From NCBI GenBank assembly GCA_030584065.1, contig CP129489.1:1777497-1841496 (forward strand): DNA of 64,000 nucleotides, read 5' to 3'. Numbering within the stretch: the first letter of the stretch is position 1; every line of letters begins with the position of its first letter. Position numbers and translations under genes: made by a program. This document shows, one piece after another, positions 22,881-41,842 of this stretch. Source of the stretch: Flavobacteriales bacterium (GTDB lineage: Bacteria; Bacteroidota; Bacteroidia; Flavobacteriales_F; PHOS-HE28). The notes beneath the pieces were generated by a model that had not been told where the DNA came from, made no database searches, and saw only the letters and a program-made list of their open reading frames with translations.

Positions 22881-24179
22881 ATGAAGAAGACCGCAAAGCC
22901 GCTCAAGCGCAAGGCGCCGTTGAGGAGGCAAGCCGCATCGAAGAGCAAGGAGTCGAAAGAGAGCAAGGCCCCCATGGCCATCAAGCGCTACTCAGGGAAG
23001 AAGGATGAGCGCGTTGCGGTGGTTGGAGAGCCAATGGTGCCCTACGGTCAAGGGTCATTCCGCTTCATCGACCTGTTCTGTGGCATCGGTGGCTTCCACA
23101 TCGCTTTCTCCAAGCAGGGTGGCGAATGTGTGTTCGCATCAGACTGGGACAAGTACGCCCAGATCTCCTACGCCGCGAATCACGGCCTTACTCCCATCGG
23201 TGACATCACCAAGGTGCCTGTGAAGGACATCCCTAAGCATGAGGTCCTTTGCGCGGGCTTCCCTTGCCAGCCCTTCAGCATTGCAGGTGTGTCTAAAAAG
23301 AACAGCCTCGGGCGCAAGCACGGCTTTGAGGATGAGCGGCAAGGCAACCTATTCTTCAACATCGCGGAGATCCTGGACCACCACCGTCCGGCGGCCTTCG
23401 TGTTGGAGAACGTGAAGAACCTGAAGAGCCATGATCGCGGGAATACCTACAAGGTGATCATGGACATCCTGCGGAACAAGCTCGGTTATCATGTCGTGGA
23501 GCCCCGCATCATCGATGCCAAGCCTTACGTGCCGCAACACCGGGAGCGCATCTTCATCGTTGGCTTCTGCGATGCCGCTGCGGCAGAGCGGTTCAAGTGG
23601 CCTACGCCTCCAAGCGAAGGCCCCAAGCTGCATACGATACTTCAACCCCGTGTGCCTGAGAAGTACACGTTGACCGACCATCTGTGGGCCTACCTCCAGA
23701 ACTACGCCGCCAAGCACAAGGCTGCGGGCAATGGCTTCGGCTTCGGTCTTGTGGGGCCGGATGACACAGCGCGCACATTGAGCGCACGCTACCACAAGGA
23801 TGGTTCGGAGATCCTGATCAACCAAGGCCGGGGGCGTAATCCGCGTCGACTCACTCCTGATGAATGTGCCTTGCTCATGGGCTATGAGGACTTCGAGATC
23901 GTGGTGAGCGATACGCAAGCCTATCGCCAGTTCGGCAACTCGGTCGTGGTCCCTGTTGTTACGGCGATCGCTGAGCAGGTGACCAAGGCCTTGGGCCTAA
24001 CCAGTGAGCAACACAAGCTGATGGCTTCCCATGCGGCCGAGCCAAGCACCACTTACACCAAGGCCAAGGCTTCCAAAGTCGGAGCGAAGGCTGTAGTTGA
24101 ACAAGATCTTAACGATCTTTCGGGGGCGATCAAGCCAGGCGCAAAGCAGAAGCGCAAGGCTGATCTTGCCCTTGCATGA
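22881..24179 (+). CDS. dcm: DNA (cytosine-5)-methyltransferase (Dcm family)
   Basis: Motif [10 protein letters not shown], motif [10 protein letters not shown], motif [10 protein letters not shown], motif [14 protein letters not shown]. Lys-rich N-terminal extension. 4-nt overlap with the next gene. Confidence 0.9.
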
Positions 24180-25372
24180 GCCAGTCCCTTGCAGACGTCT
24201 TTGATGCCGTAGCGCACAAGCGCCTTGTGCAGGTCGACCTTCCCGGAATGGGGTCGAACCAGCATGAATTGAATGGTGTATCAGCGCTTCGCGAGTTCTT
24301 CCAGACCAGCGAAAAGGTCGAAGGACCATTGCATTGGCACTACTTCGCCGATGATAAGGAGGTTGAAGAGCAGGAAGGGCGTTTCAGTTTCTATGATGCG
24401 AGGGCCAAGTCCGCCGAAAGGACGGGGCGCTCTGAGTGGCGTTTCTATTACTCCGGTGAGTTCCTTGCGAAGTGTGCACCAGGCGATGAGTTGATCATTG
24501 TTCGCGCGGCAGGCAAGGTGCATGCACTTGTATTTCAGCGAGGCTCAGCTCGTTTACGCGCGGCGCTTCTCCTGTTCGGCATTAGTTCCACAGGGGAGCA
24601 GATCAGTCTTCTGTCAAGTGAAGCAATAGCCAAGAGCGACCTCGCGCTTTTTCGGCGACAAGTCATCGAAGAGCTTGAGCTCGACGTCCAGTTGCCTGTT
24701 GCCGGTAACGACAAGGACTTGGTCATTGAGCGCTTCGGTGAGAAGTTCCCTTCAACCGCTGTCATGTCAGCCTTCGCGCGTGAGCAGGTCGGTTCGGATG
24801 TTGGGGACGCCGATGCTGCCTTGGTCGCGTGGCTTGATCGTGAAGAACAGCTCTTCCGCGCTCTGGAGGAGGTGATCATTAGCAAGCGCATCCAGCAAGG
24901 CTTCAAGGAGGTGGATGACTTCATCCAGTACTCGCTTACGGTTCAGAACCGCCGCAAGTCGCGCATGGGGCATGCCTTGCAGCATCACTTGGCCGAAGTG
25001 TTTACGCTCCACAAGGTTCAGTTCAAGGCTCAGGCGAAAACCGAGGGTGGCAACAAGCCCGATTTCATCTTTCCTGGCGAGGCTGAGTATCACAACGCAT
25101 CCTTCGACGAGTCGCTGCTTCTCATGCTTGGTGTGAAGTCCAGCGCGAAGGACCGTTGGCGTCAGATCCTTCCGGAAGCTTCGCGAATCGCCACCAAGCA
25201 CCTATGCACGCTGCAGCCTGGGATCTCAGAGAACCAGACCGATCAGATGGCCAGCGAACGTGTGCAATTGGTGATACCTAGTTCGATACAAGCCACTTAC
25301 ACGGATGCCCAGCGCTCCAAACTTCTGAGCGTTGCCGGCTTTATTGACTTGGTGCGTAGCAAGCAAGCGTGA
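24176..25372 (+). CDS. putative type II restriction endonuclease (EcoRII-like by size and context; PD-(D/E)XK-like ...KPDFIF...LGVKSS...)
   Basis: 398 aa, translationally coupled between dcm and vsr. A CCWGG-type M/R/Vsr trio is inferred from gene context only. Confidence 0.45.
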
Positions 25373-25735
25373 TGGCCAAGCGACACGACGTCTTCACCAA
25401 GGCCAAGCGCTCGGAGGTGATGTCGAAGATCCGGGGCAAGGGCAACAAAGCCACAGAGGTCGCCCTAGCCAAGCTATTTCGGGCCAGCGGCATCACCGGC
25501 TGGCGCAGACACTATCCCATTACAGGGAAACCAGACTTTGCCTTCCCCAAGCTGAAGTTCGCCGTCTTCGTGGATGGCTGCTTCTGGCATGGCTGCCCCA
25601 AGCATGGCACCCGGCCCAAGGGTGTAAGCTTCCCCGAAGTTCGGCCATTCATTGCTGGAGGTGAAGTGATCCTTGGCCCCGCGGGGCCAAGGATCGCTTC
25701 GGCCGGCCAGGGGCTACATTCAACCACACGTAGCC

Positions 25736-26008
25736 ATGAGAAAGAGCAAGTTCACCGAGCATCAGGTCATCGCCATCCTCAAGCGTCACGAGGCTGGCTC
25801 GAAGGTGGCCGACCTGTGCCGCGAGCACGGGATCAGCAACGCCACGTTCTACCAATGGAAGGCCAAGTATGGCGGCATGGAGCCCAACCAGGTCAAGCAG
25901 CTGCGTGACCTGCAGGAGGAGCTCAGCCGCCTGAAGCGCATGTACACCGAGCTGAGCATGGTGCATGATGCCTTGAAGCAGGTGGTGGAAAAGAAGTGGG
26001 GCGCCTGA
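25736..26008 (+). CDS. IS3-family transposase OrfA (HTH)
   Basis: [48 protein letters not shown]... Confidence 0.8.
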
Positions 26009-26033
26009 CGAGAAGCGCGAGATCGTTCAGGCG

Positions 26034-26807
26034 ATGATACAGGAGCACAGCATCTCCGAGCGCCAAGCCTGCGGCAGCGTGGGCTTGGCGCGCAGCACCG
26101 CGCAGTACTGCAAGACCCCAGCGGATGACACGCCCATTATCCAGGTCTTGGAACAGCTCACCCAGAAGCACCCGGCCATCGGGGTGTGGCAAAGCCATCA
26201 TCGGATGCGCTTGATGGGTCACCTGTGGAACTTCAAGCGGGTGTATCGGGTCTACACCGGTCTGGGCCTCAACATTCGTCGCAGGGCCAAGAAACGGCTG
26301 CCTGCACGGGTGAAGCAGGCGCTGTTCCGTCCTGCTGGTCCGGACCAGGTCTACAGCATCGACTTCATGCATGACAGCCTCTGGGACGGCCGGACCTACC
26401 GCTTGCTAAATGTGATCGACGACTACAACAGGGAGGTGCTCGCGATCGAGGTGGACACCTCACTGCCCGCACTGCGCGTGATACGCGTGCTGGAACGCAT
26501 CAAAGCAGTGCGTCCGCTGCCCAAGATGATCCGCGTGGACAACGGCCCGGAGTTCATCAGCGCCAAGCTCGACCACTGGTGCCGCGAACACGGCATTACC
26601 TTGACCTACATCCAGCCAGGCAAGCCCACCCAGAACGCCTACATCGAACGCCTCAACGGCAGCATCCGTCGTGAACTGCTCAGCGCCTACGTGTTCCGTA
26701 CCTTGGACGAGGTGCGCGAGAAGGCCGATGAGTGGATGACCGATTACAACCATCACCGCCCACACAAGGCGCTTGGCTACCGGCCGCCAGCGCCCATCCG
26801 ATCCTAA
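26034..26807 (+). CDS. IS3-family transposase OrfB (DDE integrase core)
   Basis: Has the DNGPEF motif and the rve fold. It lies in the +1 frame relative to orfA, not the usual -1 (see findings). Confidence 0.8.
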
Positions 26808-27040
26808 ACCTATGCCCCAGGAGCCTCTAGTTATGATCGGCCCGAAAACAGGGGAAGCTTACAAGGGCAACAGCGCGTTTTGGTCCGCGAAGCTGGACGC
26901 CAACAAGGCCCGGGACCGCAAGGTGAATCGTGAGCTTCTAGCCATGGGATGGCGCGTGCTAAGGATTTGGGAATGTAAGCTCCCCCAAGATCAGGTGCGT
27001 GGGATAGTAGAAACCCACAACCCACCTGAACTTTGGAGCA

Positions 27041-27307
27041 ATGAAGAAGAGTAAATGGACGGAAGCGCAGATCGTAGGGATGCTGCGCGAGCATGAGCAG
27101 GGCCGCAAAGTGGCGGACATCTGCCGGGAGCACAGAGTAAGCCAGCCGACGTTCTACCAGTGGAAGGCCAAGTATGGTGGCATGGGCGCAAGCGAGCTCA
27201 AGGAGCTACGGGCATTGCGCGAGGAGAATACCAAGCTGAAGCTCAAGCTGGCCGACACGATCCTGGACCGTGACATCCTCAAGGAGATCCTGGGAAAAAA
27301 GCCCTAG
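27041..27307 (+). CDS. IS3-family transposase OrfA
   Basis: [48 protein letters not shown]...; ends ...ILGKKP*. Confidence 0.8.
   Translation: MKKSKWTEAQIVGMLREHEQGRKVADICREHRVSQPTFYQWKAKYGGMGASELKELRALREENTKLKLKLADTILDRDILKEILGKKP
27295..27301 (+). promoter_or_regulatory. programmed -1 ribosomal frameshift heptamer A AAA AAG of IS copy 2
   Basis: 'gga aaa aag ccc tag' in the orfA frame. The -1 frame continues KKALGLAEKREMAHWLV... into orfB. Confidence 0.7.
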
Positions 27308-27327
27308 GGCTCGCCGAGAAGCGTGAG

Positions 27328-28227
27328 ATGGCACACTGGCTTGTAACGCAGTGCAAGCGCAGTGTTCGGCGGGTCTGCAAGCTGCTATGCTTGAGCCAGA
27401 GCGTGTATCGCTACGAGCCCAAGCCGAAGGACGATATCGACGTGATCGAACACATGAACCACTGGGTGACCAAGAAACCGACCTGGGGCTTTTGGAAGGT
27501 GTACACTCGTGTACGCAAGGACGGCCGTGTGGTGAACCACAAGCGCCTACACCGGCTGTACACCACAGCAGGGCTCAACCTGCGTCGACCTACGAAGAAG
27601 CGCGTTCCGGACCGGGTGAAAGAGCCACTGTGTTTGCCGATCGGCCCGAACATCACTTGGAGCATGGACTTCATGGCCGACCGGCTGCTGAACGGCAACA
27701 AGCTGCGCACGTTCAACGTCATTGACGACTTCGGCCGCGAGGCACTGAACATCACGATCGACACCTCTATCCGCGCCCAGTACGTGACGCGTGAACTGGA
27801 CAAGTTGATCGAGTGGCGTGGCAAGCCAGAGCGGCTGCGAGTGGACAATGGCCCTGAGTTCATCGCCCAGGAGATGGAATTGTGGGCGGAACGCAACGGC
27901 ATCGCACTTACGTTCATCGAGAAGGGGCGTCCCATGCAGAACGGCCTGATCGAGCGATTCAATCGCACCTACCGGGAAGAAGTGCTGGACGCCTACCTGT
28001 TCGAGAACCTCGAACAGCTTCGCCAGCTGACCATCGAGTTCATCTGGAGCTACAACAACGAGCGGCCCCATGATGCACTCCTGGACCTGACCCCGCGCGA
28101 GTTCCTGTTGAAATGTGGACAACTCCCTGCCCACTACGCAGGCTCACGCGCGGACTTCCCCACATTCCAACAGGATGATCACCACAGATCAACAGAAGTG
28201 GTGATCTTTAGGAATTCGCGCGCCTGA
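27328..28227 (+). CDS. IS3-family transposase OrfB (DDE)
   Basis: DNGPEFIAQ...; -1 frame relative to orfA. The OrfAB fusion is reachable by slippage at the A_AAA_AAG site. Confidence 0.8.
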   Translation: MAHWLVTQCKRSVRRVCKLLCLSQSVYRYEPKPKDDIDVIEHMNHWVTKKPTWGFWKVYTRVRKDGRVVNHKRLHRLYTTAGLNLRRPTKKRVPDRVKEPLCLPIGPNITWSMDFMADRLLNGNKLRTFNVIDDFGREALNITIDTSIRAQYVTRELDKLIEWRGKPERLRVDNGPEFIAQEMELWAERNGIALTFIEKGRPMQNGLIERFNRTYREEVLDAYLFENLEQLRQLTIEFIWSYNNERPHDALLDLTPREFLLKCGQLPAHYAGSRADFPTFQQDDHHRSTEVVIFRNSRA

Positions 28228-28311
28228 TCAGGGGGAGCTTACAGGAACATGACCTAACCGATAGGCGTGTTTCCCATACCATTAACCGCATTGAAGAATA
28301 CATCCAGATGT

Positions 28312-29175
28312 CTACCGCGAAGTAGGGTTTCGGAACAATACCATTTCCTTGAACTGAGCTGAGTCTAGTTGGTTATCGACTTCTCTCTCATTGTTCGCTG
28401 CAGTTGGTCCTCTCCAAACAGGAGATAGTCGCCAATTAATGACCCCGTTCCTTATACTATTCAGCACTGTTTCGGTCCATTCTGGGGAATAGGCGCAACC
28501 TGGCGGTGTGCTAGGTAAACTCATTGCATGAACAATCACAAATTCTAATCCTTTGTTAAACCTCTTTATGCATTGTTTCCACCACTTAGTTTTCACTGAA
28601 TGCTGAAGATGTGTATCATTCTCCATATAACCGAAAAGCTCCTCCTCGAAAATCTGGCAGAGTTTATCCATATTCTTAATTTCAGCATCCCTTAAGTAAC
28701 CCTCAGATTGAAATGGTGCATCAGCAGGAAGAGAATTGATGAACGCCTCTACGAACACATTCCAAGATTGGTCCGTAAGTCCGTGGTTTCTCCAATTTTC
28801 ACGATAGTGTCCAAGCTCGTCAAGCTGTGAGGTTACTCTTCCAATTATACGGAGCTTGGCTTCCGACCGACTAATACCCTCCCATGCAAGAGACTCACTA
28901 GCCTCGGCGCCAAAGCGGCGCTGCGCGTTTGTGAGTTCATCTTCGCTAATTGCAGAGTACTTTAATGCCTTATGTGTATACTGGTACTTATTCTGTGTGA
29001 ATTCATCATGTGCATTTGCAACAACTTCTAGAAAATCCTCATGATTTGGCCCTTTAAACACAGTAACTGGAACTGGTTGATTGGGCCGAGCGATGAGGTA
29101 AGCGCACAATCGATGATTGCCATCAAATACTTTTAACTGACCATCCGAGTATCGGCATAGAATAGGCGAAAGCAA
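28312..29175 (-). CDS. ParB/Srx-superfamily (DGQHR/DUF262-like) domain protein; no ATG start, in frame with the upstream HNH ORF
   Basis: ...SDGQLKVFDGNHRLCAYLIARPNQ... (D-G-x-H-R motif). Track start is a TTG. The 45 codons upstream, up to the HNH stop, contain no stop. Lower GC than the flanks. Confidence 0.55.
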   Translation of the reverse strand: MLSPILCRYSDGQLKVFDGNHRLCAYLIARPNQPVPVTVFKGPNHEDFLEVVANAHDEFTQNKYQYTHKALKYSAISEDELTNAQRRFGAEASESLAWEGISRSEAKLRIIGRVTSQLDELGHYRENWRNHGLTDQSWNVFVEAFINSLPADAPFQSEGYLRDAEIKNMDKLCQIFEEELFGYMENDTHLQHSVKTKWWKQCIKRFNKGLEFVIVHAMSLPSTPPGCAYSPEWTETVLNSIRNGVINWRLSPVWRGPTAANNEREVDNQLDSAQFKEMVLFRNPTSR

Positions 29176-29310
29176 TGGATTAGATCTCAGGTGCCATGCT
29201 AGGTTGATGACCTTGCGAACATCCGCTGCGCGTGTCTGTACTTGCCTGTCTACCCATAGCAGGGCTGGAGGAACAACAGTTGAAAATGAAGTCCATCTTT
29301 TATTGGTGAA

Positions 29311-29772
29311 CTATTGATGCATGACAGGATACTCCCTGTCTTGAAAGGTGGCTATATGTCGTTGATCATCCCATACAATATGCGCCTTGTACTCTGCAGC
29401 ATCAGGTGATCTCCCCGGAAGAAGGTCGTCTGAGAATCTTGTATTGGAGGCTTTGCGATGTATTTTAATATACTCAATCCATTCCTGTCCAGTGTACTTA
29501 TTGCCCTTCCCCTTGTGACAGTTCCTTCTTGCGGCAGTATCATATCCATCTTCAAAACAGGAAACTCCATCCCTTGCTGCATGAACAGGGTATTGATTGG
29601 CAACAAGGTCTGCTTGACGATCTCCGACTAATCCTTGGGCTAGCCAATGATCGAACTGGATATCTCCGAAATGTGCATATCCGTCGAAGTTTGAATGTGG
29701 TAAGCCCAAGCCGTCGCACACGTAGCATCGTGGCTTCTGCTCAAGTCTGCGCTCCTTCTCTGCTCGCGTCAT
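29311..29772 (-). CDS. HNH endonuclease domain protein
   Basis: CYVCDG...QFDHWLAQG...N...CHKGKGNK (CxxC...DH...N...CHxxK). Ends with a TAG at 29311-29313 in the same frame as the downstream ParB-like ORF. Confidence 0.7.
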   Translation of the reverse strand: MTRAEKERRLEQKPRCYVCDGLGLPHSNFDGYAHFGDIQFDHWLAQGLVGDRQADLVANQYPVHAARDGVSCFEDGYDTAARRNCHKGKGNKYTGQEWIEYIKIHRKASNTRFSDDLLPGRSPDAAEYKAHIVWDDQRHIATFQDREYPVMHQ

Positions 29773-29791
29773 GGCTTTGTTTCACTTATCG

Positions 29792-29890
29792 TTACATATT
29801 CCTCCGGTACTGCCCCCCCACCTCGAACATCGCTTGCGTCAACCGCCCTAGCGAGCAGTACTTCGTCGCCTCCATCAGCACCGCGAATCC
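29792..29890 (-). repeat. icmF 3'-terminus copy D (last ~33 codons plus stop), direct repeat
   Basis: ttacatattcctccggtactgccccc... encodes ...[31 protein letters not shown]; compare the real icmF end at 43246. Confidence 0.8.
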
Positions 29891-30044
29891 CGCTCCGGCA
29901 TCCGTAGGCCTCGTACCTCGGCCACGGTCGCTACGGCGGGACTTCGCGCTGCTTAGCATGGTGGTCATCACAAGTCGATCAAGGGCACAACGTAGACCCG
30001 GACGTGCGCATCCACGGTAACGATGTACGTATCGAGCAGCAGCT

Positions 30045-30260
30045 TCATTCCATGTACTCCTTGAAGTCATCCAAGGGTGCATCGAAGTCGTCCGGCACCG
30101 TCACCATGCCCTTGGCCAAGCCGGGCACCGGCGTCTTGCGCTTCTCCTGCGGCTCATTGCCCTGCCGGCGACGCATCAGGAACTCGATGAAGTCGAGCAC
30201 CTGCTGGCGAACATCCTCCGGGAGGGAGGATAGCTGGATGTAGTTGTGCGCCTTGGCCAT
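30045..30260 (-). CDS. DUF2281-family antitoxin (orphan)
   Basis: MAKAHNYIQLSSLPEDVRQQVLDFIEFLMRRRQ...; no toxin gene downstream. Confidence 0.6.
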   Translation of the reverse strand: MAKAHNYIQLSSLPEDVRQQVLDFIEFLMRRRQGNEPQEKRKTPVPGLAKGMVTVPDDFDAPLDDFKEYME

Positions 30261-30281: not shown

Positions 30282-30395
30282 CGGGTCCGGTCACATGTTC
30301 CTCCGGTTCTGACCACCTACCTCGAACAACCTGTCCCGCCTTAGCGGATCGCTTGCGTCAACTGCCCCAGCGAGCAGTCCGTCGTCGCCTTCATC
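30282..30395 (-). repeat. icmF 3'-terminus copy E (degenerate)
   Basis: tcacatgttcctccggttctgaccacctacctcgaaca...cgcttgcgtcaactgccccagcgagcagtccgtcgtcgccttcatcagcac. Confidence 0.7.
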
Positions 30396-30420
30396 AGCAC
30401 GGAGCAGTTGACGCCGATGA

Positions 30421-30861
30421 TCATTTCAAGAACTCGTCCGTGAAGTTCCGCGCGCTCAGTATCCGTGTGTGTCCATAGCTCCGCATCGAGAGCAGGTCGT
30501 CATCGCCGGTGATCAGCAGATCAGCCTTCCCCTTCTTCGCCATCAGCAGCAGATAGTCATCCTTGGGGTCGCGGGAGAGGGGAGCCTGGCCGGTGGACCG
30601 CACCTCCACGGATTCCCCAGCTTCCGCCAGGGCGAGGATCAGTTGATGGGCGAACTCTACAGGGAAATGCTTGCGGAACCTCGCTCGTGCGGCCACATCC
30701 AGCAGCTCGGCCAGTAGTTGGGGGCTCACCAGCAGAACGAAGTCGCTGTGGCGCAAGGCAGCCACGAAGCCTCCCAGCCGCTTGCCGATCAGGAAGCTGA
30801 TGAGCACGTTGACGTCAACGACGACGCGCAGCGCGGCTCGCTTCCTTTTTGGCGGCGGCAT
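30421..30861 (-). CDS. PIN-domain toxin (putative toxin-antitoxin system toxin component, PIN family)
   Basis: VVDVNVLISFLIG...DDYLLLMAKKGKADLLITGDDDLL (the PIN acidic residues). Confidence 0.75.
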   Translation of the reverse strand: MPPPKRKRAALRVVVDVNVLISFLIGKRLGGFVAALRHSDFVLLVSPQLLAELLDVAARARFRKHFPVEFAHQLILALAEAGESVEVRSTGQAPLSRDPKDDYLLLMAKKGKADLLITGDDDLLSMRSYGHTRILSARNFTDEFLK

Positions 30862-31078
30862 AACGTTGGGCCCTTACGATATCCACCTCCTTGCGGATGG
30901 TCTCTTCATCGATGTCCACGCCCTTGAGCTTGGACATGAGTTCCTCCAGCCGGTCGAGCGCGCGTTCCCGCTCCAAGGCCTTGACCAGGGCCGCCTTCTT
31001 TTTCTCAGGCAATTGCTTGGCCAGCTCCACCACCTGGTCGGGGGTGAGATCGATACGGAATCCGCGGTCGAATGACAT
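30815..31078 (-). CDS. cognate antitoxin of the PIN toxin (small coiled-coil/RHH-like protein)
   Basis: MSFDRGFRIDLTPDQVVELAKQLPEKKKAALVKALERERALDRLEEL...; overlaps the PIN ORF start. Confidence 0.5.
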   Translation of the reverse strand: MSFDRGFRIDLTPDQVVELAKQLPEKKKAALVKALERERALDRLEELMSKLKGVDIDEETIRKEVDIVRAQRYAAAKKEASRAARRR

Positions 31079-31104
31079 GACCCAAAGATAAGCGATGCCC
31101 GGCC

Positions 31105-31215
31105 TTACATGTTCCTTCTGTACTGCCCACCCACCTCGAATCCCGCTCGTATGCCCGTACGCCTCGTTCCTCGGCAACGGTCATAACGGCGGGACTTCGC
31201 GCTGCTCAGCATACG
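31105..31215 (-). repeat. icmF 3'-terminus copy F (internally deleted version of copy D)
   Basis: ttacatgttccttctgtactgcccacccacctcgaa, then a post-divergence segment shared with copy D (...cggcgggacttcgcgctgct.agcat...). Confidence 0.7.
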
Positions 31216-31737
31216 CCTCATCACATATTACGTCGGTACTGTCCACCGACCTCAAACATAGCGGCGGTGAGCTGCCCCAGCGAACAATACTTCGTCGCCT
31301 CCATCAGCACCGCGAACATATTCTGGTTCCTGATCGCCGCCTGCTGAAGATCCTTGATCGCCTTGGCCGCCTCTGCCGAGTATGCCTGCTTCAAGTTCTC
31401 GACGGTGGCGATCTGCGCCTCCTTCTCCTCCTCGGTGGCGCGGATCACCTCCTTGGGCAGGATGGTGGGCGAGCCCTTGCTGCTGAGGAAGGTGTTCACG
31501 CCGATGATGGGGTATTCGCCGGTGTGCTTCAACGTTTCGTAGTAGAGGCTTTCCTCCTGGATGCGGCTGCGCTGGTACATGGTCTCCATGGCGCCCAGCA
31601 CGCCGCCGCGCTCGGTGATGCGATCGAACTCGGCCAAGACGGCCTCCTCCACCAGGTCGGTGAGCTCTTCGATGATGAAGCTGCCTTGCAGCGGGTTCTC
31701 GTTCTTGGCCAGGCCGAGCTCCTTGTTGATGATGAGC

Positions 31738-31930
31738 TCTTGGGTACCACACCGCACCCCGTTCCGGCGCCATCCGCCTTCGGCGGCCCCTTCGGGCGGG
31801 CGCGCTCGTCCGGCCATGCTGCGTTGCTCGTCGGTCGGCTACCTCGTGGTAGCCTCCCTTCCTCGCGCCTTGCCTGGCCGAACGATCATCGCCCGTGGCA
31901 TCCGTTCGGGGCACGGCGTGGTACCCTGTG
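31738..31930. repeat. MITE-like ~190-bp insert 1 (terminal inverted repeats GGGTACCAC / GTGGTACCC; core GCTACCTCGTGGTAGCCTC...CTGGCCGAACGATC...TGGCATC)
   Basis: Present in copy C between 'gatgatgagct' and 'ggccatggcgcgg'; absent from the intact icmF at 43730-43800. Confidence 0.65.
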
Positions 31931-32185
31931 GCCATGGCGCGGCGCACGCTTTCCTCGGTGCCTGAGCCTGCCCCGGCCTCCGAGCCGGGGTGGTGATGGC
32001 CTCGTCGTAGGCGTTGGTGTGCAGGCTGTTGCAGTTGTCGTAGATGGCGTAGAGCGCCTGCAACGTGGTGCGGATGTCGTTGAAGTCGATCTCCTGCGCG
32101 TGGAGGCTGCGGCCGCTGGTCTGGATGTGGTACTTCAGCATCTGGCTGCGCTCGTCGGCGCCGTAGCGGTGCTTGAGCGCCTTGG

Positions 32186-32382
32186 CCCGTTGGGTGCCAC
32201 GAAGTCCACCGAGCAGCGCCACTGCGGTGTAGCCGCTGCCCTTCGGGTGAGCGCCGCTCATTCGCCCATACTTCGTTGCTTCCTCAGTCAGCTACCTATG
32301 GGTAGCCTCTCTTCGTCGCGCCTCGTCTGGCCGAACGATCGTCACTCATGGCATCTGCCCGGCGAACTCCGAGGCACCCCGG
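32186..32382. repeat. MITE-like ~195-bp insert 2, same family as insert 1
   Basis: ...GCTACCTATGGGTAGCCTCTCTTCGTCGCGCCTCGTCTGGCCGAACGATCGTCACTCATGGCATCTGCCCGG...; absent from the intact icmF at 43985-44000. Confidence 0.65.
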
Positions 32383-32942
32383 CGGCGCGCCACGCGGCCC
32401 ATCACGGCGTACTCGGGGTCCATGCCGTTGCTGAAGAAGAAGCTCAGGTTGGGCGCGAAGGCGTTGATGTCCATGCCCCGGCTCAGGTAGTACTCCACGT
32501 AGGTGAAGCCGTTGGCCAAGGTGAAGGCAAGCTGGCTGATGGGGTTGGCGCCGGCCTCCGCGATGTGGTAGCCGCTGATGCTGACGCTGTAGAAGTTGCG
32601 GACCTTCTTGTCGATGAAGTATTGCTGCACATCGCCCATCAAGCGCAACGCGAACCTGCCTGTCCGGTAGGCAGGCTCGGTGCTGAAGATCGTTGTTCTG
32701 CGCCTGGTGGTTATGCCCGCCCTGAGCTTGTCGAAGGGTTGGGCGTGCCCCCTCGCAAAAGCCTCGGGGTCGCGTGCTTCGCTTTAGCCGGACTTGTCAG
32801 GGCCAGCATCCACGGCGCTGCGGGGTCCTCCTTCGTCGGCCTCCTCGCTGCTCGTGGTTGCAAGGCCCTTCCAGCGCCGGGCTGCCGCTTCGCCCGCTCA
32901 CGCAGATCCATTGTACCACGTTGAACGTGTACTTTTGTCCCA

Positions 32943-33299: not shown

Positions 33300-33405
33300 G
33301 TTGCCGCCACGTGCGGTAGTTCCTGCCTGTTCCGCCTGAGCGGATCGGGCTTGTCCGCGTTCCCGCGAACGCATTCCATTTCGTTCCATCTCGAAGTCAT
33401 TTCCC

Positions 33406-36400
33406 ATGATCGACCGGATCATCAAGTTCTCCATCCACAACAAGGCCATCATCGGGCTGTTCACGCTCGTGCTGGTGCTTTACGGGGCGTACTCGCTCAC
33501 GCAATTGCCGATCGATGCGGTACCCGACATCACCAACAACCAGGTGCAGGTGATCACCACCACGCCTACGCTGGCCGCGCAGGAGGTGGAACAGTTCGTT
33601 ACCGCGCCCATCGAGCGGGCCATGGCCAGCCTGCCCGATCTGGTGGAGATCCGCTCCATCAGCCGCTTCGGGCTAAGTCTTGTGACCATCGTATTCGATG
33701 AGGACGTGGACGTGTACTTCGCCCGCACCTTGGTGGACCAGCGCCTGGGCGAGGCCGCCGCACTGATACCGCCCGGGGTGGGCACACCGACCATGGCCCC
33801 GGTAAGCACCGGGTTGGGCGAGGTGTACCAATACGTGCTGCACCCCAAGGAAGGGTACGAGGGCACCTTCAGCCCCAGCGAGCTGCGCACCATCCAGGAA
33901 TGGATCGTAGTGCGGCAGCTGTTGGGCACACCCGGTGTGGCCGAGGTGAACAGCTACGGCGGCGAGGTGAAGCAGTACGAGGTGAGCGTGGACCCCAAGC
34001 GCTTGCAAAGCATGGGCGTCACCATCGGTGAGCTACTGCTCGCGTTGGAGAGCAACAACGAGAACACCGGCGGCGCCTACATCGAGAAACGGCCCAACAG
34101 CTACAGCATCCGGGGCGAAGGACTGCTGCGCACGCTGGACGACATCCGCAAGGTGGTGGTGAAGATCCCGCCCGGCGGTGTGCCGCTCCTGGTGGGCGAT
34201 GTGGCCGAGGTGGGCTTCGGTGCGGCCCCGCGCTACGGTGCGCTCACCCGCAATGGCGAAGGCGAAGCGGTGGGCGGCACGGTGATGATGCTGAAGGGTG
34301 GCAACAGCGCCGAAGTGGTGAAGGCTATTGAAGCGCGCATACCGAACGTGCAGAAGGCCCTGCCGGAAGGGCTGATGATCGAACCCTATCTGGTGCGCAG
34401 CGAACTGGTGGGGCGGGCCATCGGCACGGTGAAGACGAACCTGATCGAGGGCGCGTTGATCGTGATCTTCGTGCTGGTGCTCTTTCTAGGAAATTGGCGC
34501 GCGGGCCTCATCGTGGCCTCGGTGATCCCACTGTGCATGCTCTTCGCCATCATCCTCATGAACGCCTTCGGCGTCAGCGGCAATTTGATGTCGCTTGGTG
34601 CCATCGATTTCGGATTGATCGTGGACGGCGCCGTGATCATCGTGGAGGCCACCCTGCACCACCTGCATGCGCGCTTCAAGGGAAGGATCCTTACCCGCGA
34701 GGAGATGGACCGCGAGGTTTTCGTGAGCGCCAGCAAGATCCGGACGAGCGCGGCCTTCGGCGAGATCATCATCCTGATCGTGTACATCCCCATCCTCACA
34801 CTGGTGGGCATCGAGGGCAAGATGTTCCGCCCCATGGCCATCACCGTCAGCTTCGCCATCCTGGGTGCCCTGTTGCTCTCGCTCACCTATGTGCCCATGA
34901 TGAGCGCGCTGGTGCTGCCGCGCAACACGGCGCACAAACCCAACTTCAGCGACCGCATGATGGACCGTTTCCAGAAGTGGTACGATCCCATCATCGGCTT
35001 CGCCTTGCGCAACCGGATCAAGACCGTGGGTGTGGCCGTGGCGCTCTTCATCAGCTCGGTCTTCCTGTTCGCACGCATGGGCGGCGAGTTCATTCCCACC
35101 TTGGAAGAGGGCGACTTCGCCTTCCACAGCATCCTGCCGCAGGGCGCATCGCTCAGCCAGAGCATCGCCAACAACGCCAAGGTGGAGAAGATCCTGCTGC
35201 AATTCCCGGAGGTGAAGCAGGTGGTGGGACGCACCGGCAGCGCCGAGATCCCCACGGACCCCATGCCCCCCGAAGCCACGGACCTCATGATCATCTTGAA
35301 GGACAAGGACGAATGGACCACCGCGCACGACCGCGAGGCTTTGCAGGACACCATGCTGCAAGCCTTGAGGCAGGTACCCGGCGTGTTCTACGAAGCCACC
35401 CAACCCATCCAGATGCGCTTCAACGAATTGATGACCGGCATACGGCAGGACGTGGCCGTGAAGATCTACGGTGAGAACATGGACACCCTCGCGGTGATCG
35501 CGAACAAGGTGGCGGCGATCATCGGCGAAGTGCAAGGTGCGGGTGAACCGCAGGTGGAAAAGGTGGTGGGCCTGCCACAGATCACCATCACCTACGATCG
35601 TGCACGGGTAGCGCAGTACGGCCTCAACATCCGCGAACTGAACCGCACCGTGCGCACGGCCTTCGCGGGCGAGGCCACCGGCGTCATCTACGAGAACGAG
35701 CGCCGCTTCGATCTGGTGGTGCGCCTCGGTGACCAACAGCGGCAGAGCATCGACGATGTGCGCACCCTCTTCGTGGCGCTGCCCGGTGGCGGACAGATCC
35801 AGTTGCAGCAGGTGGCCGATGTGTCCTTGACACCCGGCCCGGCCCAGATCAGCCGGGAGGATGCCAAGCGCCGCATCGCCGTGGGCGTGAACATCCGTGG
35901 CCGTGACGTGGAAAGCTTCGTGGAAGAGCTCCAAGGCCGCATCGATGCCGAAGTGCCAATGCCCGCGGCCTACTACTACACCTTCGGCGGCACCTTCGAG
36001 AACCTGCAGGCAGCTAGCAAACGCCTGATGCTGGCGGTGCCCATCGCGCTGGCCCTCATCTTCCTGCTGCTCTTCTTCACCTTCAACAGCGTGAAGCGCG
36101 CCCTGCTGATCTACACCGCCATCCCCATGAGCGCCATCGGCGGTGTGCTTGCGCTCATGGCGCGCGGCATGCCCTTCAGCATCAGCGCGGGCGTGGGCTT
36201 CATCGCGCTCTTCGGCGTGGCGGTGCTCAACGGCATCGTCCTCATCGCCACCTTCGACCAACTGGAAAAGGAAGGCATCAGCGACCTGAAGGAGCGCGTG
36301 TTGAAAGGTACCCGCACACGGCTGCGTCCCGTGCTGATGACGGCGGCGGTGGCCTCGCTCGGTTTCCTGCCCATGGCCTTGAGCGGCAACGCGGGCGCGG

Positions 36401-37728
36401 AAGTGCAACGCCCCCTGGCCACGGTGGTGATCGGTGGCCTCATCACCGCCACGGCCCTCACCCTCATGGTGCTGCCGGTGCTTTACCTGCTCTTCATGGG
36501 CGGAGGCAGGAGGCGCAACGATGCCAATGGCGGCAAGGCGAACGCACCGCTGATCGTCGCGACCGTGCTGTTGATCATGATCGGCGGCACCAGCAGCGCA
36601 CAGGAACCGATGCCGATGGACACGGCGATCGCACGCGCCTTGCGCACCCATCCGAGCATGACCGCTGCGGAACTGCGTGTGCAGGAACAGGATGCCCTGC
36701 GTGGCACGGCCTTCGGGCTGCAGCCGCTCAACGCGCAATTCTCCCATGGCCAGACCCAGGGGCCGTATCCCAAGGACATTATCCTGGAAGCCAATACCGG
36801 GTTCGCATTTCCCACCACCATTGCCCGACGCGCGGCCTACCTGAAGGAAAGCCTGCACCTTGCGGAGAACGAAAAGCTGAACACGGCGGCCTACGTGAAG
36901 GAGAGCGCGGGAGGGGCCTACCTGCAATGGGCCATGGGCCTTGAACAGGTGCGTATCCTGCAACAGCTGGACAGCGCGTACGCATCCATGGCGGCCTTCG
37001 CGCTGCAGCGCTTCGAGCTCGGTGAGACCGGCCGCTTGGAAAGCACCAGTGCGCAAAGCCGCGCCGAGCAGGTGAAGGTGCGCTTGCGCCAGGCACAGGC
37101 TGATCTGGTGGCCTACCAGGTGGAAGTAGAACGCTGGACGGGCCCGCTCAGTGGTGCCGTGCCGGTGCCCGAGGAATTGCTCAACACCGCACGAGCGCCG
37201 GATCCCGGCGGCGGCAACGACCCGCTCCTGCTCTCCTTGCAGCAGCGCACGCAGGTGGCCGAGGCCGAATGGAAACTGCAACGCAGCCAATGGGCACCCA
37301 GCCTGCAGGGCGGCGGCTTCTACCAGACCTTCGATGGCACGTCGCCCTTTTCGGGCTTCCTCATCGGTGCTTCGATCCCCCTGCCCGGCAGCGGCCAGGG
37401 CGGTCGCACCTCGGCGGCACGTTTGCGCAGCGAGATCGCCGCGCAGGAACTGGAAGCCGCACGCCGACAGCGCAGCAGCGAGCGCGCCACCACGCAGGCG
37501 CAGCTCACTCAATTGCGCGAGAGCCTCGCCTTCTATGAAAGCACCGGTGCCGCGCTGGGTGCTACCCTGCGCGACGATGCCCTGCGTGCCTATCGCGCGG
37601 GCGAAGCCGACTACTTCCAATTCACTCAAGGCATCGAGCAGGCCTTTCAACTCAACGCCGAGCACCTGCGCGTGCGTTACGAGCTCGCACTTACCGTCCT
37701 CCACCTCCGTGCCCTCAATGGGCTCTAA
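33406..37728 (+). CDS. czcA: CzcA/CusA-family heavy-metal RND pump fused in frame to a TolC/CzcC-type outer-membrane factor (1440 aa, no stop between them)
   Basis: Residues 1-~1030 are a typical HME-RND (12 TM helices, two large loops). Then ...VLPVLYLLFMGGGRRRNDANGGKANAPLIVATVLLIMIGGTSSAQEP... (a signal-peptide-like segment) and ~400 aa of OMF repeats. Confidence 0.8.
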   Translation: MIDRIIKFSIHNKAIIGLFTLVLVLYGAYSLTQLPIDAVPDITNNQVQVITTTPTLAAQEVEQFVTAPIERAMASLPDLVEIRSISRFGLSLVTIVFDEDVDVYFARTLVDQRLGEAAALIPPGVGTPTMAPVSTGLGEVYQYVLHPKEGYEGTFSPSELRTIQEWIVVRQLLGTPGVAEVNSYGGEVKQYEVSVDPKRLQSMGVTIGELLLALESNNENTGGAYIEKRPNSYSIRGEGLLRTLDDIRKVVVKIPPGGVPLLVGDVAEVGFGAAPRYGALTRNGEGEAVGGTVMMLKGGNSAEVVKAIEARIPNVQKALPEGLMIEPYLVRSELVGRAIGTVKTNLIEGALIVIFVLVLFLGNWRAGLIVASVIPLCMLFAIILMNAFGVSGNLMSLGAIDFGLIVDGAVIIVEATLHHLHARFKGRILTREEMDREVFVSASKIRTSAAFGEIIILIVYIPILTLVGIEGKMFRPMAITVSFAILGALLLSLTYVPMMSALVLPRNTAHKPNFSDRMMDRFQKWYDPIIGFALRNRIKTVGVAVALFISSVFLFARMGGEFIPTLEEGDFAFHSILPQGASLSQSIANNAKVEKILLQFPEVKQVVGRTGSAEIPTDPMPPEATDLMIILKDKDEWTTAHDREALQDTMLQALRQVPGVFYEATQPIQMRFNELMTGIRQDVAVKIYGENMDTLAVIANKVAAIIGEVQGAGEPQVEKVVGLPQITITYDRARVAQYGLNIRELNRTVRTAFAGEATGVIYENERRFDLVVRLGDQQRQSIDDVRTLFVALPGGGQIQLQQVADVSLTPGPAQISREDAKRRIAVGVNIRGRDVESFVEELQGRIDAEVPMPAAYYYTFGGTFENLQAASKRLMLAVPIALALIFLLLFFTFNSVKRALLIYTAIPMSAIGGVLALMARGMPFSISAGVGFIALFGVAVLNGIVLIATFDQLEKEGISDLKERVLKGTRTRLRPVLMTAAVASLGFLPMALSGNAGAEVQRPLATVVIGGLITATALTLMVLPVLYLLFMGGGRRRNDANGGKANAPLIVATVLLIMIGGTSSAQEPMPMDTAIARALRTHPSMTAAELRVQEQDALRGTAFGLQPLNAQFSHGQTQGPYPKDIILEANTGFAFPTTIARRAAYLKESLHLAENEKLNTAAYVKESAGGAYLQWAMGLEQVRILQQLDSAYASMAAFALQRFELGETGRLESTSAQSRAEQVKVRLRQAQADLVAYQVEVERWTGPLSGAVPVPEELLNTARAPDPGGGNDPLLLSLQQRTQVAEAEWKLQRSQWAPSLQGGGFYQTFDGTSPFSGFLIGASIPLPGSGQGGRTSAARLRSEIAAQELEAARRQRSSERATTQAQLTQLRESLAFYESTGAALGATLRDDALRAYRAGEADYFQFTQGIEQAFQLNAEHLRVRYELALTVLHLRALNGL

Positions 37729-37740
37729 GACCGCATAGAC

Positions 37741-39120: not shown

Positions 39121-39124
39121 GATC

Positions 39125-41005
<1,881 letters not shown>

Positions 41006-41038
41006 GGGTTCTGGAACATAACTTGCGTGGCTACGAAC

Positions 41039-41787: not shown

Positions 41788-41842
41788 TCGATAGTGCGAT
41801 CACCGTGTCCGAGAGTGAATGGAGTATCGTGCCCTTCGCGGG

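What the first reader, a model, noticed from the sequence alone, without database searches (positions are those of the whole stretch)
28312..29772. HNH nuclease and ParB/DGQHR-like domain in one frame, split only by an amber codon: a permuted GmrSD/DndB-like defence protein, probably inactivated
ORF 29311-29772 is a CxxC...DH...N...CHxxK HNH nuclease. ORF 28312-29175 has the DGNHR motif of the ParB/Srx/DUF262/DGQHR superfamily. The two lie in the same frame. The 45 codons between the HNH stop (TAG at 29311-29313) and the track's TTG start contain no stop and no ATG, so this was one ~440-aa protein broken by a nonsense mutation, or a two-gene pair with a non-canonical start. The domain order (HNH N-terminal, ParB-like C-terminal) is the reverse of GmrSD/SspE-type type IV restriction enzymes. 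The locus is AT-rich and sits beside a decayed R-M module.
Basis: partly seen in the sequence, partly recalled or inferred. Interest (0 to 1): 0.7.

Follow-up and report, generated by a model that had tools for sequence, protein, structure and literature searches.

The report
Amber-broken HNH–ParB nuclease beside Dcm module
A single gene for a rare, uncharacterised DNA-cutting protein (HNH nuclease joined to a ParB/sulfiredoxin-type nucleotide switch) has recently been knocked out here by one stop codon. Its intact relatives elsewhere always sit next to cytosine-5 DNA methyltransferase/mismatch-repair modules, which suggests an unrecognised accessory of methylation-based defence.

Summary
On the minus strand, 29772..28312 is one reading frame with a single TAG (29313..29311).

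- **One gene, not two.** Twenty-three homologues of 480-495 aa (45-54% identical) cover 96-99% of the joined protein without interruption. The window copy keeps 97 of 99 family-invariant residues, so the amber mutation is recent.
- **Context.** In all 13 informative loci the gene lies within a few genes of an m5C methyltransferase. Vsr or an HhH-GPD glycosylase accompanies it in 11 of them, and EcoRII-, MvaI- or FokI-like enzymes in some. Its similarity does not track the methyltransferase class.
- **This locus.** The neighbouring module is not decayed. M (22881-24179) and an EcoRII-like R (24176-25372) are intact. Only Vsr is broken, by two IS3-like insertions.

Best reading: an NTP-gated HNH defence nuclease coupled to m5C modules, GmrSD/SspE-like in logic but not a member of those families, and newly pseudogenised here. 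Its actual target is not resolved.

The parts
28312..29772 (-). Whole gene 'X' (486 codons including the internal TAG, plus the terminal TAG at 28312-28314): HNH, then a ParB/Srx-like domain, then a helical domain. Pseudogene through one amber codon.
   Evidence: Single frame. Twenty-three uninterrupted homologues of 480-495 aa cover 96-99%. 97 of 99 invariant positions are kept.
29314..29772 (-). HNH (beta-beta-alpha-metal) nuclease domain plus a small beta-rich linker domain, residues 1-153. The core motifs are C16xxC19, D41-H42, N59, H64 and N84-C85-H86-x-G-K89.
29311..29313 (-). The amber (TAG) codon at position 154, in the variable linker between the HNH and ParB-like domains.
   Evidence: Homologues carry Q, K, E, R, D, L, T, S or P at this column. 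TAG is an ordinary stop in this genome: it ends the Bro-N gene, Vsr and X itself.
29176..29310 (-). 45 conserved codons stranded between the amber codon and the first possible start (TTG at 29175). They encode the first strand and helix of the ParB/Srx fold, including the Q179-x-R181 motif.
   Evidence: No stop or start codon lies in this stretch. It holds 15 invariant residues. In the model the fold starts at about residue 160.
29038..29301 (-). ParB/sulfiredoxin-fold domain (residues ~158-245) with the invariant VFDGNHRL motif, which is the counterpart of ParB box II GERR, Srx GCHR and DndB DGQHR.
28315..29037 (-). C-terminal all-helical domain (residues ~246-486), conserved across the family (KTKWW, ANNE motifs). 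It has no recognisable relative and is presumed to be a DNA-, mark- or partner-recognition domain.
22881..24179 (+). Intact C5-cytosine DNA methyltransferase (432 aa), Dcm-like. This is the partner module.
   Evidence: PF00145 at 2.8e-80, full-length match. It is 85% identical to the MTase of the syntenic locus L006.
24176..25372 (+). Intact EcoRII-like restriction endonuclease (398 aa), overlapping the MTase stop.
   Evidence: PF09019 EcoRII-C at 1.3e-66, positions 1-165 of 165.
25369..28325 (+). Vsr T:G mismatch endonuclease gene, split into three pieces (25369-25622, 26864-26973, 28244-28325) by two IS3-like elements. Its 3' end overlaps the 3' end of X convergently.
   Evidence: PF03852 hit on the N-terminal piece. 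Removing both IS elements and one copy of each target duplication in silico restores a 145-aa ORF that is 71% identical to the L006 Vsr.
25623..26863 (+). IS3-family insertion sequence A (orfA/orfB), with 4-bp target duplication AGGG.
   Evidence: Terminal inverted repeats TGTAAGCTTCCC. Target duplication. The two ORFs read like an IS3-type orfA/orfB transposase pair (my reading of the translations; no family search was run).
26974..28243 (+). IS3-family insertion sequence B, with 4-bp target duplication GGAA. It ends 68 bp before the stop codon of X and does not touch X.
29793..29947 (-). Diverged duplicate of the 3' end of the icmF (fused methylmalonyl-CoA-mutase-like) gene, directly upstream of X. 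It marks the island boundary.
   Evidence: blastn and tblastn matches to 31223-31342, 41845-41964 and 43248-43365, and to L006 7653-7835.

Best explanation
**What is shown.** The two ORFs are one gene, called X here, for a 486-aa protein of a rare, unnamed family. It has three parts: an N-terminal zinc-stabilised HNH nuclease, a ParB/sulfiredoxin-fold domain with an invariant DGNHR phosphate-binding-type motif, and a novel ~240-aa helical domain. In this genome a single, recent amber mutation in the inter-domain linker has killed it. The only product left is a free 153-aa HNH fragment. Any downstream product would lack the first strand and helix of the ParB fold.

The family is a fixed companion of cytosine-5 methyltransferase modules. 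Here the ancestral unit was M - EcoRII-like R - Vsr, convergent with X.

**What is inferred.** X is a defence nuclease gated by nucleotide binding or hydrolysis in the ParB/Srx domain, as in GmrSD, BrxU and SspE. NTP-driven dimerisation of that domain would bring two HNH domains together on DNA. Its activity is functionally tied to the m5C mark or module rather than to one recognition sequence. The most likely role is a second restriction effector that spares m5C-marked host DNA, by the same logic as SspE with phosphorothioate.
For: **One gene, recently broken.**
- Single frame with one TAG.
- 23 uninterrupted homologues.
- 97 of 99 invariant residues are kept, the same as intact members score in a leave-one-out test.
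- TAG is a normal stop in this genome, and no suppressor tRNA is in the window.

**Domains.**
- Invariant HNH and DGNHR motifs.
- AF2 models with pLDDT 87.5 and 84.9.
- Distant relatives (FDGQHK motif) pass the Pfam HNH cut-off.

**Link to m5C modules.**
- A PF00145 MTase lies within a few genes in 13 of 13 informative loci, in at least 6 different gene arrangements.
- Vsr is present in 7 loci and an HhH-GPD glycosylase in 4.
- L018 has an M-Vsr-EcoRII-X operon in which X overlaps the EcoRII stop by 4 nt.
- L004 and L014 have an M-glycosylase-X operon with no other nuclease.

**Defence-gene behaviour.**
- The gene has lower GC than its flanks in all 8 homologue loci tested and in the window.
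- The related host of L006 (IcmF 88%, MTase 85%, Vsr N-terminal part 90% identical) has the same synteny, but X is only 48% identical, with no detectable DNA similarity, and R is swapped for an MvaI-like enzyme.
- X neighbours the PADLOC candidate system PDC-M33 in 6 loci.

**Not bound to one sequence specificity.** X similarity does not correlate with MTase similarity (r = 0.06). For example, L001 and L012 have X proteins 67% identical while their MTases share only a 25%-identical local match.
Against: - No profile HMM (Pfam, NCBIfam, PADLOC) recognises either domain in the window protein. The domain calls rest on motifs, predicted structure and transitive homology.
- No biochemical data exist for any member.
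- The NTP-gating step and the 'm5C protects self' step are inferences from analogy and gene neighbourhood.
- In 7 loci a complete M-R pair with its own REase (EcoRII, MvaI or FokI-like) is already present, so X is not needed as the restriction partner there.
- A generic m5C reader has not been identified in the protein: the C-terminal domain matches nothing.
- The one distant relative whose context could be read (P0145, locus L022) is a solitary gene among housekeeping genes with no MTase. That fits a stand-alone, Type IV-like enzyme better.
- Only about 14 loci were available and some are phylogenetically related.
Confidence: 0.6

Rival explanations
1. X is a stand-alone, modification-dependent (Type IV) restriction enzyme with GmrSD-like logic. 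It cuts foreign DNA that carries hypermodified cytosine (hmC, glucosyl-hmC or similar), which escapes m5C-sensitive Type II enzymes. It sits beside m5C R-M modules because the two defences complement each other, not because X needs the methyltransferase.
For: - It has the same two catalytic building blocks as GmrSD, BrxU and SspE: a ParB/Srx-type domain plus an HNH domain (PMC4619093).
- X does not co-vary with MTase specificity.
- Seven loci already have their own REase.
- A distant relative is solitary, with no MTase nearby.
- It shows defence-island behaviour and allelic replacement.
Against: - Co-location with specifically m5C MTases in 13 of 13 loci, in several independent gene orders, is hard to explain by island clustering alone. 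It includes 4-nt overlaps with the upstream gene inside M-V-R-X and M-glycosylase-X operons.
- The far more common m6A systems were not seen as partners in these loci.
- There are no DUF262 or DUF1524 matches.
Confidence: 0.25
2. X takes part in DNA repair linked to m5C deamination. It would act as a nickase or processing nuclease working with Vsr or the HhH-GPD thymine glycosylase, and is not a defence gene.
For: - X is immediately adjacent to Vsr (window, L006, L012, L021) or to the HhH-GPD glycosylase (L002, L004, L011, L014).
- X clades follow the type of T:G repair gene better than the MTase class (taken together with the context calls).
- In the window both Vsr and X are inactivated.
Against: - Between related hosts, Vsr and the MTase are 71-90% conserved (MTase 85%; Vsr 90% over its N-terminal part and 71% over the reconstructed full length) while X has been replaced by a 48%-identical allele of much lower GC. 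That is not how a repair partner behaves.
- Vsr needs no extra nuclease (established knowledge of very-short-patch repair).
- L019 has X and an MTase but no detectable Vsr or glycosylase.
Confidence: 0.07
3. The split is functional or only apparent. Either the amber codon is read through or suppressed, or the locus works as a two-gene pair (a free HNH protein plus a TTG-initiated ParB-like protein), or the TAG is a sequencing error.
For: - No other defect is visible: 97 of 99 invariant residues are kept.
- The stop lies in a variable, lower-confidence linker between domains.
- A sister subfamily does exist as two genes.
Against: - The natural two-gene forms split at residue ~244, after the ParB domain, not at 154.
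- A TTG-initiated product would lack about 40 residues of the ParB fold, including invariant residues.
- No start codon lies in the 45 codons after the stop.
- TAG terminates neighbouring genes.
- No suppressor tRNA is present in the window.
- The same TAG is found in a second assembly.
Confidence: 0.05
4. X is a homing- or mobility-type endonuclease that helps the M-R-Vsr island move or insert at the 3' end of icmF.
For: - X sits at the very edge of the island, directly next to a duplicated icmF 3' end, both in the window and in L006.
- HNH nucleases are common homing enzymes (established knowledge).
Against: - In other loci the flanks are unrelated: purH, MFS transporters and others.
- No homologues were found in viral contigs or plasmids.
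- No icmF duplicate was noted next to X in the other loci, although this was not searched for systematically.
Confidence: 0.03

Closest known systems
GmrSD / BrxU / SspE family (DUF262 ParB-like NTPase + DUF1524 HNH-like nuclease; Type IV restriction and the phosphorothioate-sensing effector)
   Same: One polypeptide combines a ParB/Srx-fold domain carrying a DGxxR-type motif (DGQQR there, DGNHR here) with a His-Me/HNH nuclease. Both are found in defence islands. The likely logic, an NTP-regulated nuclease, is shared. SspE in addition works alongside a DNA-modification module, as X appears to do.
   Different: - The domain order is reversed: HNH is N-terminal here.
- There is no sequence-profile match to DUF262 or DUF1524.
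- X has an extra ~240-aa helical domain that matches nothing.
- The partner is an m5C MTase plus Vsr or a glycosylase, not a dnd/ssp cluster, and X is mostly not solitary.
DndB / DGQHR-domain proteins (TIGR03187, PF14072)
   Same: ParB-like fold. The motif is nearly the same: DGNHR in the X family and DGQHK in its distant relatives, against DGQHR. A helical region follows the ParB-like core. Both are associated with a DNA-modification system.
   Different: - DndB is a regulator without a nuclease domain.
- There is no TIGR03187 or PF14072 hit for X. The best is E=0.022 for one distant relative.
- There are no dnd genes nearby.
ParB-CTPase-fold/HNH fusions noted in the 2025 survey of the ParB fold (PMC12704722)
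   Same: That survey lists bacterial proteins combining a ParB fold with an HNH domain as novel and functionally unexplored.
   Different: Those were found through Pfam domains (the survey plots PF01844 for HNH). The X family is invisible to Pfam models at E<=1, so it is probably not among them. The survey describes no link to m5C modules.
Dcm-Vsr / EcoRII-type m5C restriction-modification modules
   Same: X belongs physically to such modules. The window has M, an EcoRII-like R and Vsr in the canonical overlapping arrangement.

Membership tests
HNH / His-Me finger nuclease superfamily | beta-beta-alpha-metal core with a catalytic His (usually in DH), a structural Asn and a metal-binding His or Asn, often with CxxC...CxxC/H zinc ligands | tested here: met
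   [not shown]
HNH / His-Me finger nuclease superfamily | Direct match of the window protein to a curated HNH profile (PF01844, PF13395, PF14279) | tested here: not met
   No Pfam or NCBIfam family at E<=1 for the 153-aa ORF or for the joined protein. An ~18-aa insert between H64 and C85 probably breaks the profile match (inference).
ParB/Sulfiredoxin fold superfamily | The fold itself, with a phosphate-binding G-x-x-R type motif (ParB GERR, Srx GCHR, DndB GQHR) | tested here: met
   [not shown]
ParB/Sulfiredoxin fold superfamily | Profile match to ParBc (PF02195) or related models | tested here: not met
   No hit at E<=1. A profile search against PDB sequences gives only ParB 4umk at E=0.42.
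ParB/Sulfiredoxin fold superfamily | Nucleotide (CTP/ATP/GTP) binding or hydrolysis | not testable with these tools
   Needs biochemistry. The 2025 survey shows that specificity cannot be predicted from sequence (PMC12704722).
GmrSD / BrxU / SspE (DUF262 + DUF1524) | N-terminal DUF262 (PF03235) with the (I/V)DGQQR, QR and FxxxN motifs | tested here: not met
   No PF03235 hit. The motif is DGNHR. A Q179-x-R181 pair is present but no FxxxN. The motifs are as defined in PMC4619093.
GmrSD / BrxU / SspE (DUF262 + DUF1524) | C-terminal DUF1524 (PF07510) nuclease with (E/D)-H-N-N, in the order NTPase then nuclease | tested here: not met
   No PF07510 hit. The nuclease is N-terminal and of the zinc-finger HNH type.
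GmrSD / BrxU / SspE (DUF262 + DUF1524) | Modification-dependent (Type IV) or modification-sensing cleavage | not testable with these tools
   Requires phage and plasmid challenge and in-vitro cleavage assays.
DndB / DGQHR domain (TIGR03187, PF14072) | Profile match and the DGQHR pentapeptide, within a dnd-type cluster | tested here: not met
   No hit for X. TIGR03187 gives E=0.022 (14.5 bits against a cut-off of 58.85) for the distant relative P0053 only. No dnd or ssp genes were called in any of the loci examined.
Cognate Type II restriction endonuclease of the adjacent m5C MTase | Co-variation of the nuclease with the MTase specificity class, and being the only nuclease of the unit | tested here: not met
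   The correlation between X similarity and MTase similarity is 0.06. Seven loci carry a separate EcoRII, MvaI or FokI-type REase. Only L004 and L014 have X as the sole nuclease.
Known or candidate anti-phage systems in PADLOC-DB v2 | Match to any PADLOC model | tested here: not met
   No hit at E<=1 for either half. By contrast, the neighbouring three-gene set in 6 loci is related to PDC-M33: the L019 set matches PDC-M33 A, B and C, and the large subunit of the L012 set matches PDC-M33A.

The most novel reading that the evidence does not exclude
The X family is a new kind of restriction effector for base methylation. It would be an NTP-gated HNH nuclease that treats m5C, written by whatever cytosine-5 methyltransferase is next door, as a generic 'self' mark, and attacks unmarked DNA. 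This is the m5C counterpart of SspE or DndFGH for phosphorothioate. One effector would then work with MTases of unrelated sequence specificity, alone (M-glycosylase-X operons) or as a second layer beside EcoRII-, MvaI- or FokI-type enzymes.
Probability: 0.22. Interest if true: 0.8.

Novelty: new variant of a known kind. Interest (0 to 1): 0.5.

Why it matters
The copy in this window is a dead gene, so the locus itself has modest value. It shows a compact Dcm-type module caught in the act of decay: two IS hits in Vsr and one nonsense hit in X, with M and R still intact.

The family behind it is more interesting:
- It is rare. Only 114 cluster representatives reach E<=0.001 among 1.84 billion proteins.
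- It is absent from Pfam, NCBIfam and PADLOC.
- It combines the two modules that define GmrSD/SspE-type enzymes, in the opposite order, with an unknown third domain.
- It is tied to cytosine-5 methyltransferase plus T:G-repair modules in every locus that could be read.

If the link is functional, classical m5C R-M units have an unrecognised accessory nuclease. A sequence-independent way of using m5C as a self mark would then become testable. The family is small and well defined, and intact alleles are available to clone.

Tried and rejected
- **Profile searches of both halves and the joined protein.** Pfam, NCBIfam and PADLOC gave nothing at E<=1. A profile of the family against PDB sequences gave only ParB 4umk at E=0.42.
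- **Fold search against AFDB50.** The library was unavailable.
- **More loci.** The genome-contig scan returned only 2 loci, both already known. The metagenome-contig scan added 3 usable loci. Viral contigs gave none. tblastn against plasmids gave none for X or its distant relatives, apart from generic HNH motifs.
- **The 251-aa gene after X in L018.** I tested whether it is a paralogue of the X C-terminal domain. It is not (hhalign probability 0.3%).
- **A cognate Type II REase.** Rejected, because X similarity does not follow the MTase class.
Rejected for M and R and upheld only for Vsr.
- **Recoding of TAG or a suppressor.** TAG ends other genes, and the only tRNA in the window is Leu-CAG.
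- **IS_B truncating X.** It does not; it ends 68 bp beyond the X stop codon.
- **Dcm-site deamination as the origin of the TAG.** By inspection, the context CAATAGTTC is not a CCWGG site.
- **Promoter and terminator scan around the gene.** Nothing informative.
- **Literature searches.** Searches for HNH+DGQHR, ParB+HNH+Vsr and PDC-M33 found no description of this family.
Full report
**1. The observation**

On the minus strand, 29772..28312 is a single reading frame with one internal stop, TAG at 29313..29311. A 153-aa ORF (ATG at 29772) precedes it. After it come 45 codons with no stop and no ATG/GTG/TTG, and then the TTG (29175) of a 287-aa ORF.

The segment 28200-29800 has about 45% GC, against 60-64% around it. 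A 1609-bp contig assembled from run SRR24881069 is 100% identical over window 28215-29823, TAG included. I cannot tell whether that is an independent sample.

**2. One gene or two?**

I searched with the joined protein, replacing the stop with Q. This returned 23 uninterrupted proteins of 480-495 aa, 45-54% identical and covering 96-99% of the query. It also returned a few shorter fragments and the window's own 287-aa ORF.

The alignment (A1) runs straight through the stop. Homologues have Q, K, E, R, D, L, T, S or P at that column. The 45 stranded codons contain 15 family-invariant residues.

The window copy keeps 97 of the 99 positions that are invariant in all 23 intact homologues. Intact members score the same in a leave-one-out test, with 0-7 violations. 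So this was one gene, and the nonsense mutation is recent.

TAG is an ordinary stop in this genome: it ends the Bro-N gene, X itself and Vsr. The only tRNA in the window is Leu-CAG.

A sister subfamily does occur as two genes, but it is split after the ParB-like domain at residue ~244. Examples are P0038 and P0040 for the N-terminal part and P0034-37 and P0039 for the C-terminal part. This does not rescue a split at residue 154.

A TTG-initiated product would lack the first strand and helix of the ParB fold. A second damaged copy exists in L021, where residues 1-58 and 43-486 lie in different frames. That could also be an assembly error.

**3. Domains**

No Pfam, NCBIfam or PADLOC model matches either half or the joined protein at E<=1. 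Three other lines of evidence support the domain calls.

- **Motifs.** C16-x2-C19, D41-H42, N59, P62-x-H64, R83-N84-C85-H86-x-G-K89 and V-F-D-G-N-H-R-L (215-222) are invariant. The HNH pattern reads like PF01844 (CxxC...DH...N...CxxCHxxK), with an ~18-residue insert before the final CH. That reading is my inference.
- **Predicted structure.**
  - The AlphaFold2 model of the joined protein has mean pLDDT 87.5.
  - Foldseek finds CTP/CDP-bound ParB, Noc, KorB, PadC and sulfiredoxin with probability about 1.0.
  - The last ~240 residues form a helical domain with no meaningful match.
- **Transitive homology.**
  - A profile search of 1.84 billion cluster representatives found only 114 proteins at E<=1e-3.
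  - The more distant ones are 480-545-aa proteins with the same layout and an FDGQHK motif.
  - Their N-termini pass the Pfam HNH gathering score.
  - One gives a sub-threshold hit to TIGR03187 DGQHR.
  - Database names are only 'hypothetical protein', 'ParB N-terminal domain-containing protein' (MCL4242948.1) or 'HNH endonuclease domain-containing protein' (WP_417989924.1).

**4. The surroundings in the window**

At 22881-24179 there is a full-length C5 methyltransferase (PF00145, 2.8e-80). At 24176-25372 there is an EcoRII-like endonuclease (PF09019, 1.3e-66). At 25369 a Vsr gene starts.

Vsr is interrupted twice by related IS3-like elements:
- 25623-26863, with target duplication AGGG;
- 26974-28243, with target duplication GGAA.

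Removing both in silico restores a 145-aa Vsr that is 71% identical to the Vsr of locus L006. Its stop (about 28323-28325) overlaps the 3' end of X convergently. The ancestral unit was therefore M-R-Vsr converging on X, a compact four-gene module.

**5. Context of the homologues**

I could read 13 other distinct loci carrying an X gene, 14 with the window. They were L001, L002, L003/4/5, L006/7, L008, L011, L012, L014, L015, L016, L018, L019/20 and L021. Only L015, a 2.8-kb contig, is too short to say whether an MTase is nearby, which leaves 13 informative loci counting the window.

Every informative locus has a PF00145 methyltransferase within a few genes of X. Vsr is present in 7 and an HhH-GPD glycosylase in 4.

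The arrangements differ:

| Locus | Arrangement |
|---|---|
| window, L006, L012, L021 | X convergent with Vsr, next to a REase and an MTase (M-R-Vsr operon in the window, L006 and L021; MTase on the other strand in L012) |
| L018 | HTH-M-Vsr-EcoRII-X operon; X overlaps the EcoRII stop by 4 nt |
| L004, L014 | M-glycosylase-X operon between housekeeping genes, with no other nuclease |
| L001, L016 | X convergent with an unrelated MTase |
| L019 | X, PDC-M33, then M with a FokI-like REase |

The companion REases belong to at least three families: EcoRII-C, MvaI_BcnI and the FokI cleavage domain. A three-gene set related to the PADLOC candidate system PDC-M33 (its smallest subunit carries DUF6339) lies next to X in 6 loci; the L019 set matches all three PDC-M33 models and the large subunit of the L012 set matches PDC-M33A.

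X similarity does not follow MTase similarity (r = 0.06). For example, the L001 and L012 X proteins are 67% identical while their MTases share only a 25%-identical local match. The one distant FDGQHK relative whose context I could read is solitary among housekeeping genes.

No homologue was found in viral contigs or plasmids.

**6. Behaviour as a defence gene**

X has lower GC than its flanks in all eight homologue loci tested and in the window.

L006 comes from a related host: IcmF is 88% identical, the MTase 85%, and the Vsr N-terminal part 90%. The synteny is the same (RhuM/Bro-N ... M-R-Vsr-X ... icmF). Yet its X is only 48% identical, with no detectable DNA similarity, and its REase is MvaI-like rather than EcoRII-like. 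The X slot is kept while the allele is exchanged. That is typical of defence genes and unlike a repair partner.

**7. Mechanism**

Shown:
- the domain architecture;
- conserved catalytic-type residues;
- a constant link to m5C modules;
- the recent knock-out.

Inferred:
- The ParB/Srx domain binds or hydrolyses an NTP and gates the HNH nuclease, as in GmrSD, BrxU and SspE (PMC4619093; abstracts). NTP-driven dimerisation, as known for ParB, could bring two HNH domains together.
- X accompanies MTases of unrelated classes and is sometimes the only nuclease in the operon. I therefore favour a restriction effector that uses m5C as a generic self mark (SspE-like logic).
- A Type IV enzyme aimed at hypermodified cytosine is a serious rival. 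Roles in repair or in island mobility are minor rivals.

None of this can be settled without experiments.

**8. Comparison with known families**

X works like GmrSD/SspE-type enzymes but is not a member. There are no DUF262 or DUF1524 matches, the domain order is reversed, and it has an extra domain. It is not DndB: it carries a nuclease, has no dnd context and gives no profile match.

A 2025 survey of the ParB fold mentions ParB-HNH fusions as novel and unexplored (PMC12704722). Those were detected through Pfam, which does not see this family.

Literature searches found no description of an HNH-ParB protein tied to Dcm/Vsr modules.

**9. Verdict**

It is wrong on the state of the neighbouring R-M module.

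The locus itself is a fresh pseudogene. The family is a rare, unannotated, m5C-module-linked nuclease: a new variant of the ParB-fold-plus-HNH kind. Interest is moderate (0.5).

Noticed in passing
window 29793-29947, ~30290-30400, 31141-32655, 41840-42308, 43246-43368 (minus strand); L006 7620-7973: The 3' end of the fused methylmalonyl-CoA-mutase-like gene icmF (intact copy at 43246-46803) is repeated at least five times downstream of the gene. The copies range from ~100 nt to ~1.5 kb and are 72-97% identical. Different cassettes lie between them. The related locus L006 has one such duplicate between icmF and X. This looks like serial site-specific insertion at the icmF 3' end, that is, an island-accretion hotspot. 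No integrase was seen.
   Followed up: partly
window 30045-30260, 30421-30861, 30815-31177 (minus strand): Toxin-antitoxin-like cassettes lie between the icmF-end copies: a DUF2281 antitoxin-like gene, a PIN_3 toxin, and a 120-aa ORF overlapping the start of the PIN gene.
   Followed up: partly
window 42329-43249 (minus strand): A PD-(D/E)XK nuclease (PF20796/REase-ARP, 1.2e-64) overlaps the icmF stop, immediately downstream of the intact icmF gene. It is another defence-type insertion at the same hotspot.
   Followed up: no
window 33400-41300: Long overlapping ORFs on both strands (for example 34486-38295 minus, 1269 aa; 33406-37728 plus, 1440 aa; 38768-40576 minus, 602 aa). None of the minus-strand ORFs scanned has a Pfam match. 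What this ~8-kb high-GC cassette encodes is unknown.
   Followed up: partly
L001 13620-16930; L008 8364-11750; L012 9276-12646; L015 16-1358; L016 3-482; L019 2648-6092: A three-gene set of about 610-636, 249-290 and 226-248 aa lies next to X in 6 loci. The L019 set matches the PADLOC candidate system PDC-M33 A, B and C (its C subunit is DUF6339), and the large subunit of the L012 set matches PDC-M33A; the other loci were tied to the L012 set by tblastn. X might be an unlisted fourth partner, or PDC-M33 might itself be m5C-linked. No paper mentions PDC-M33.
   Followed up: partly
[not shown]
   Followed up: no
window 24176-25372 vs L006 9861-11171: Two related hosts keep 85%-identical Dcm-like MTases but have non-homologous REases: EcoRII-C type in the window and MvaI/BcnI type in L006. 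The restriction gene has been swapped under a constant methyltransferase.
   Followed up: partly
L021 7478-8936: A second disrupted X gene. Residues 1-58 and 43-486 are in different frames, beside an intact EcoRII, MTase and an uncalled Vsr (9375-8992). It could be a true frameshift or an assembly error.
   Followed up: partly
window 20484-21332 (minus strand); L006 14313-15418: A Bro-N/RhuM-type gene lies on the far side of the island in both related loci, with about 79% DNA identity.
   Followed up: no
L001 5745-9881: A 1378-aa protein with no Pfam or PADLOC match lies directly upstream of X, on the same strand, in the Gammaproteobacteria MAG locus.
   Followed up: no
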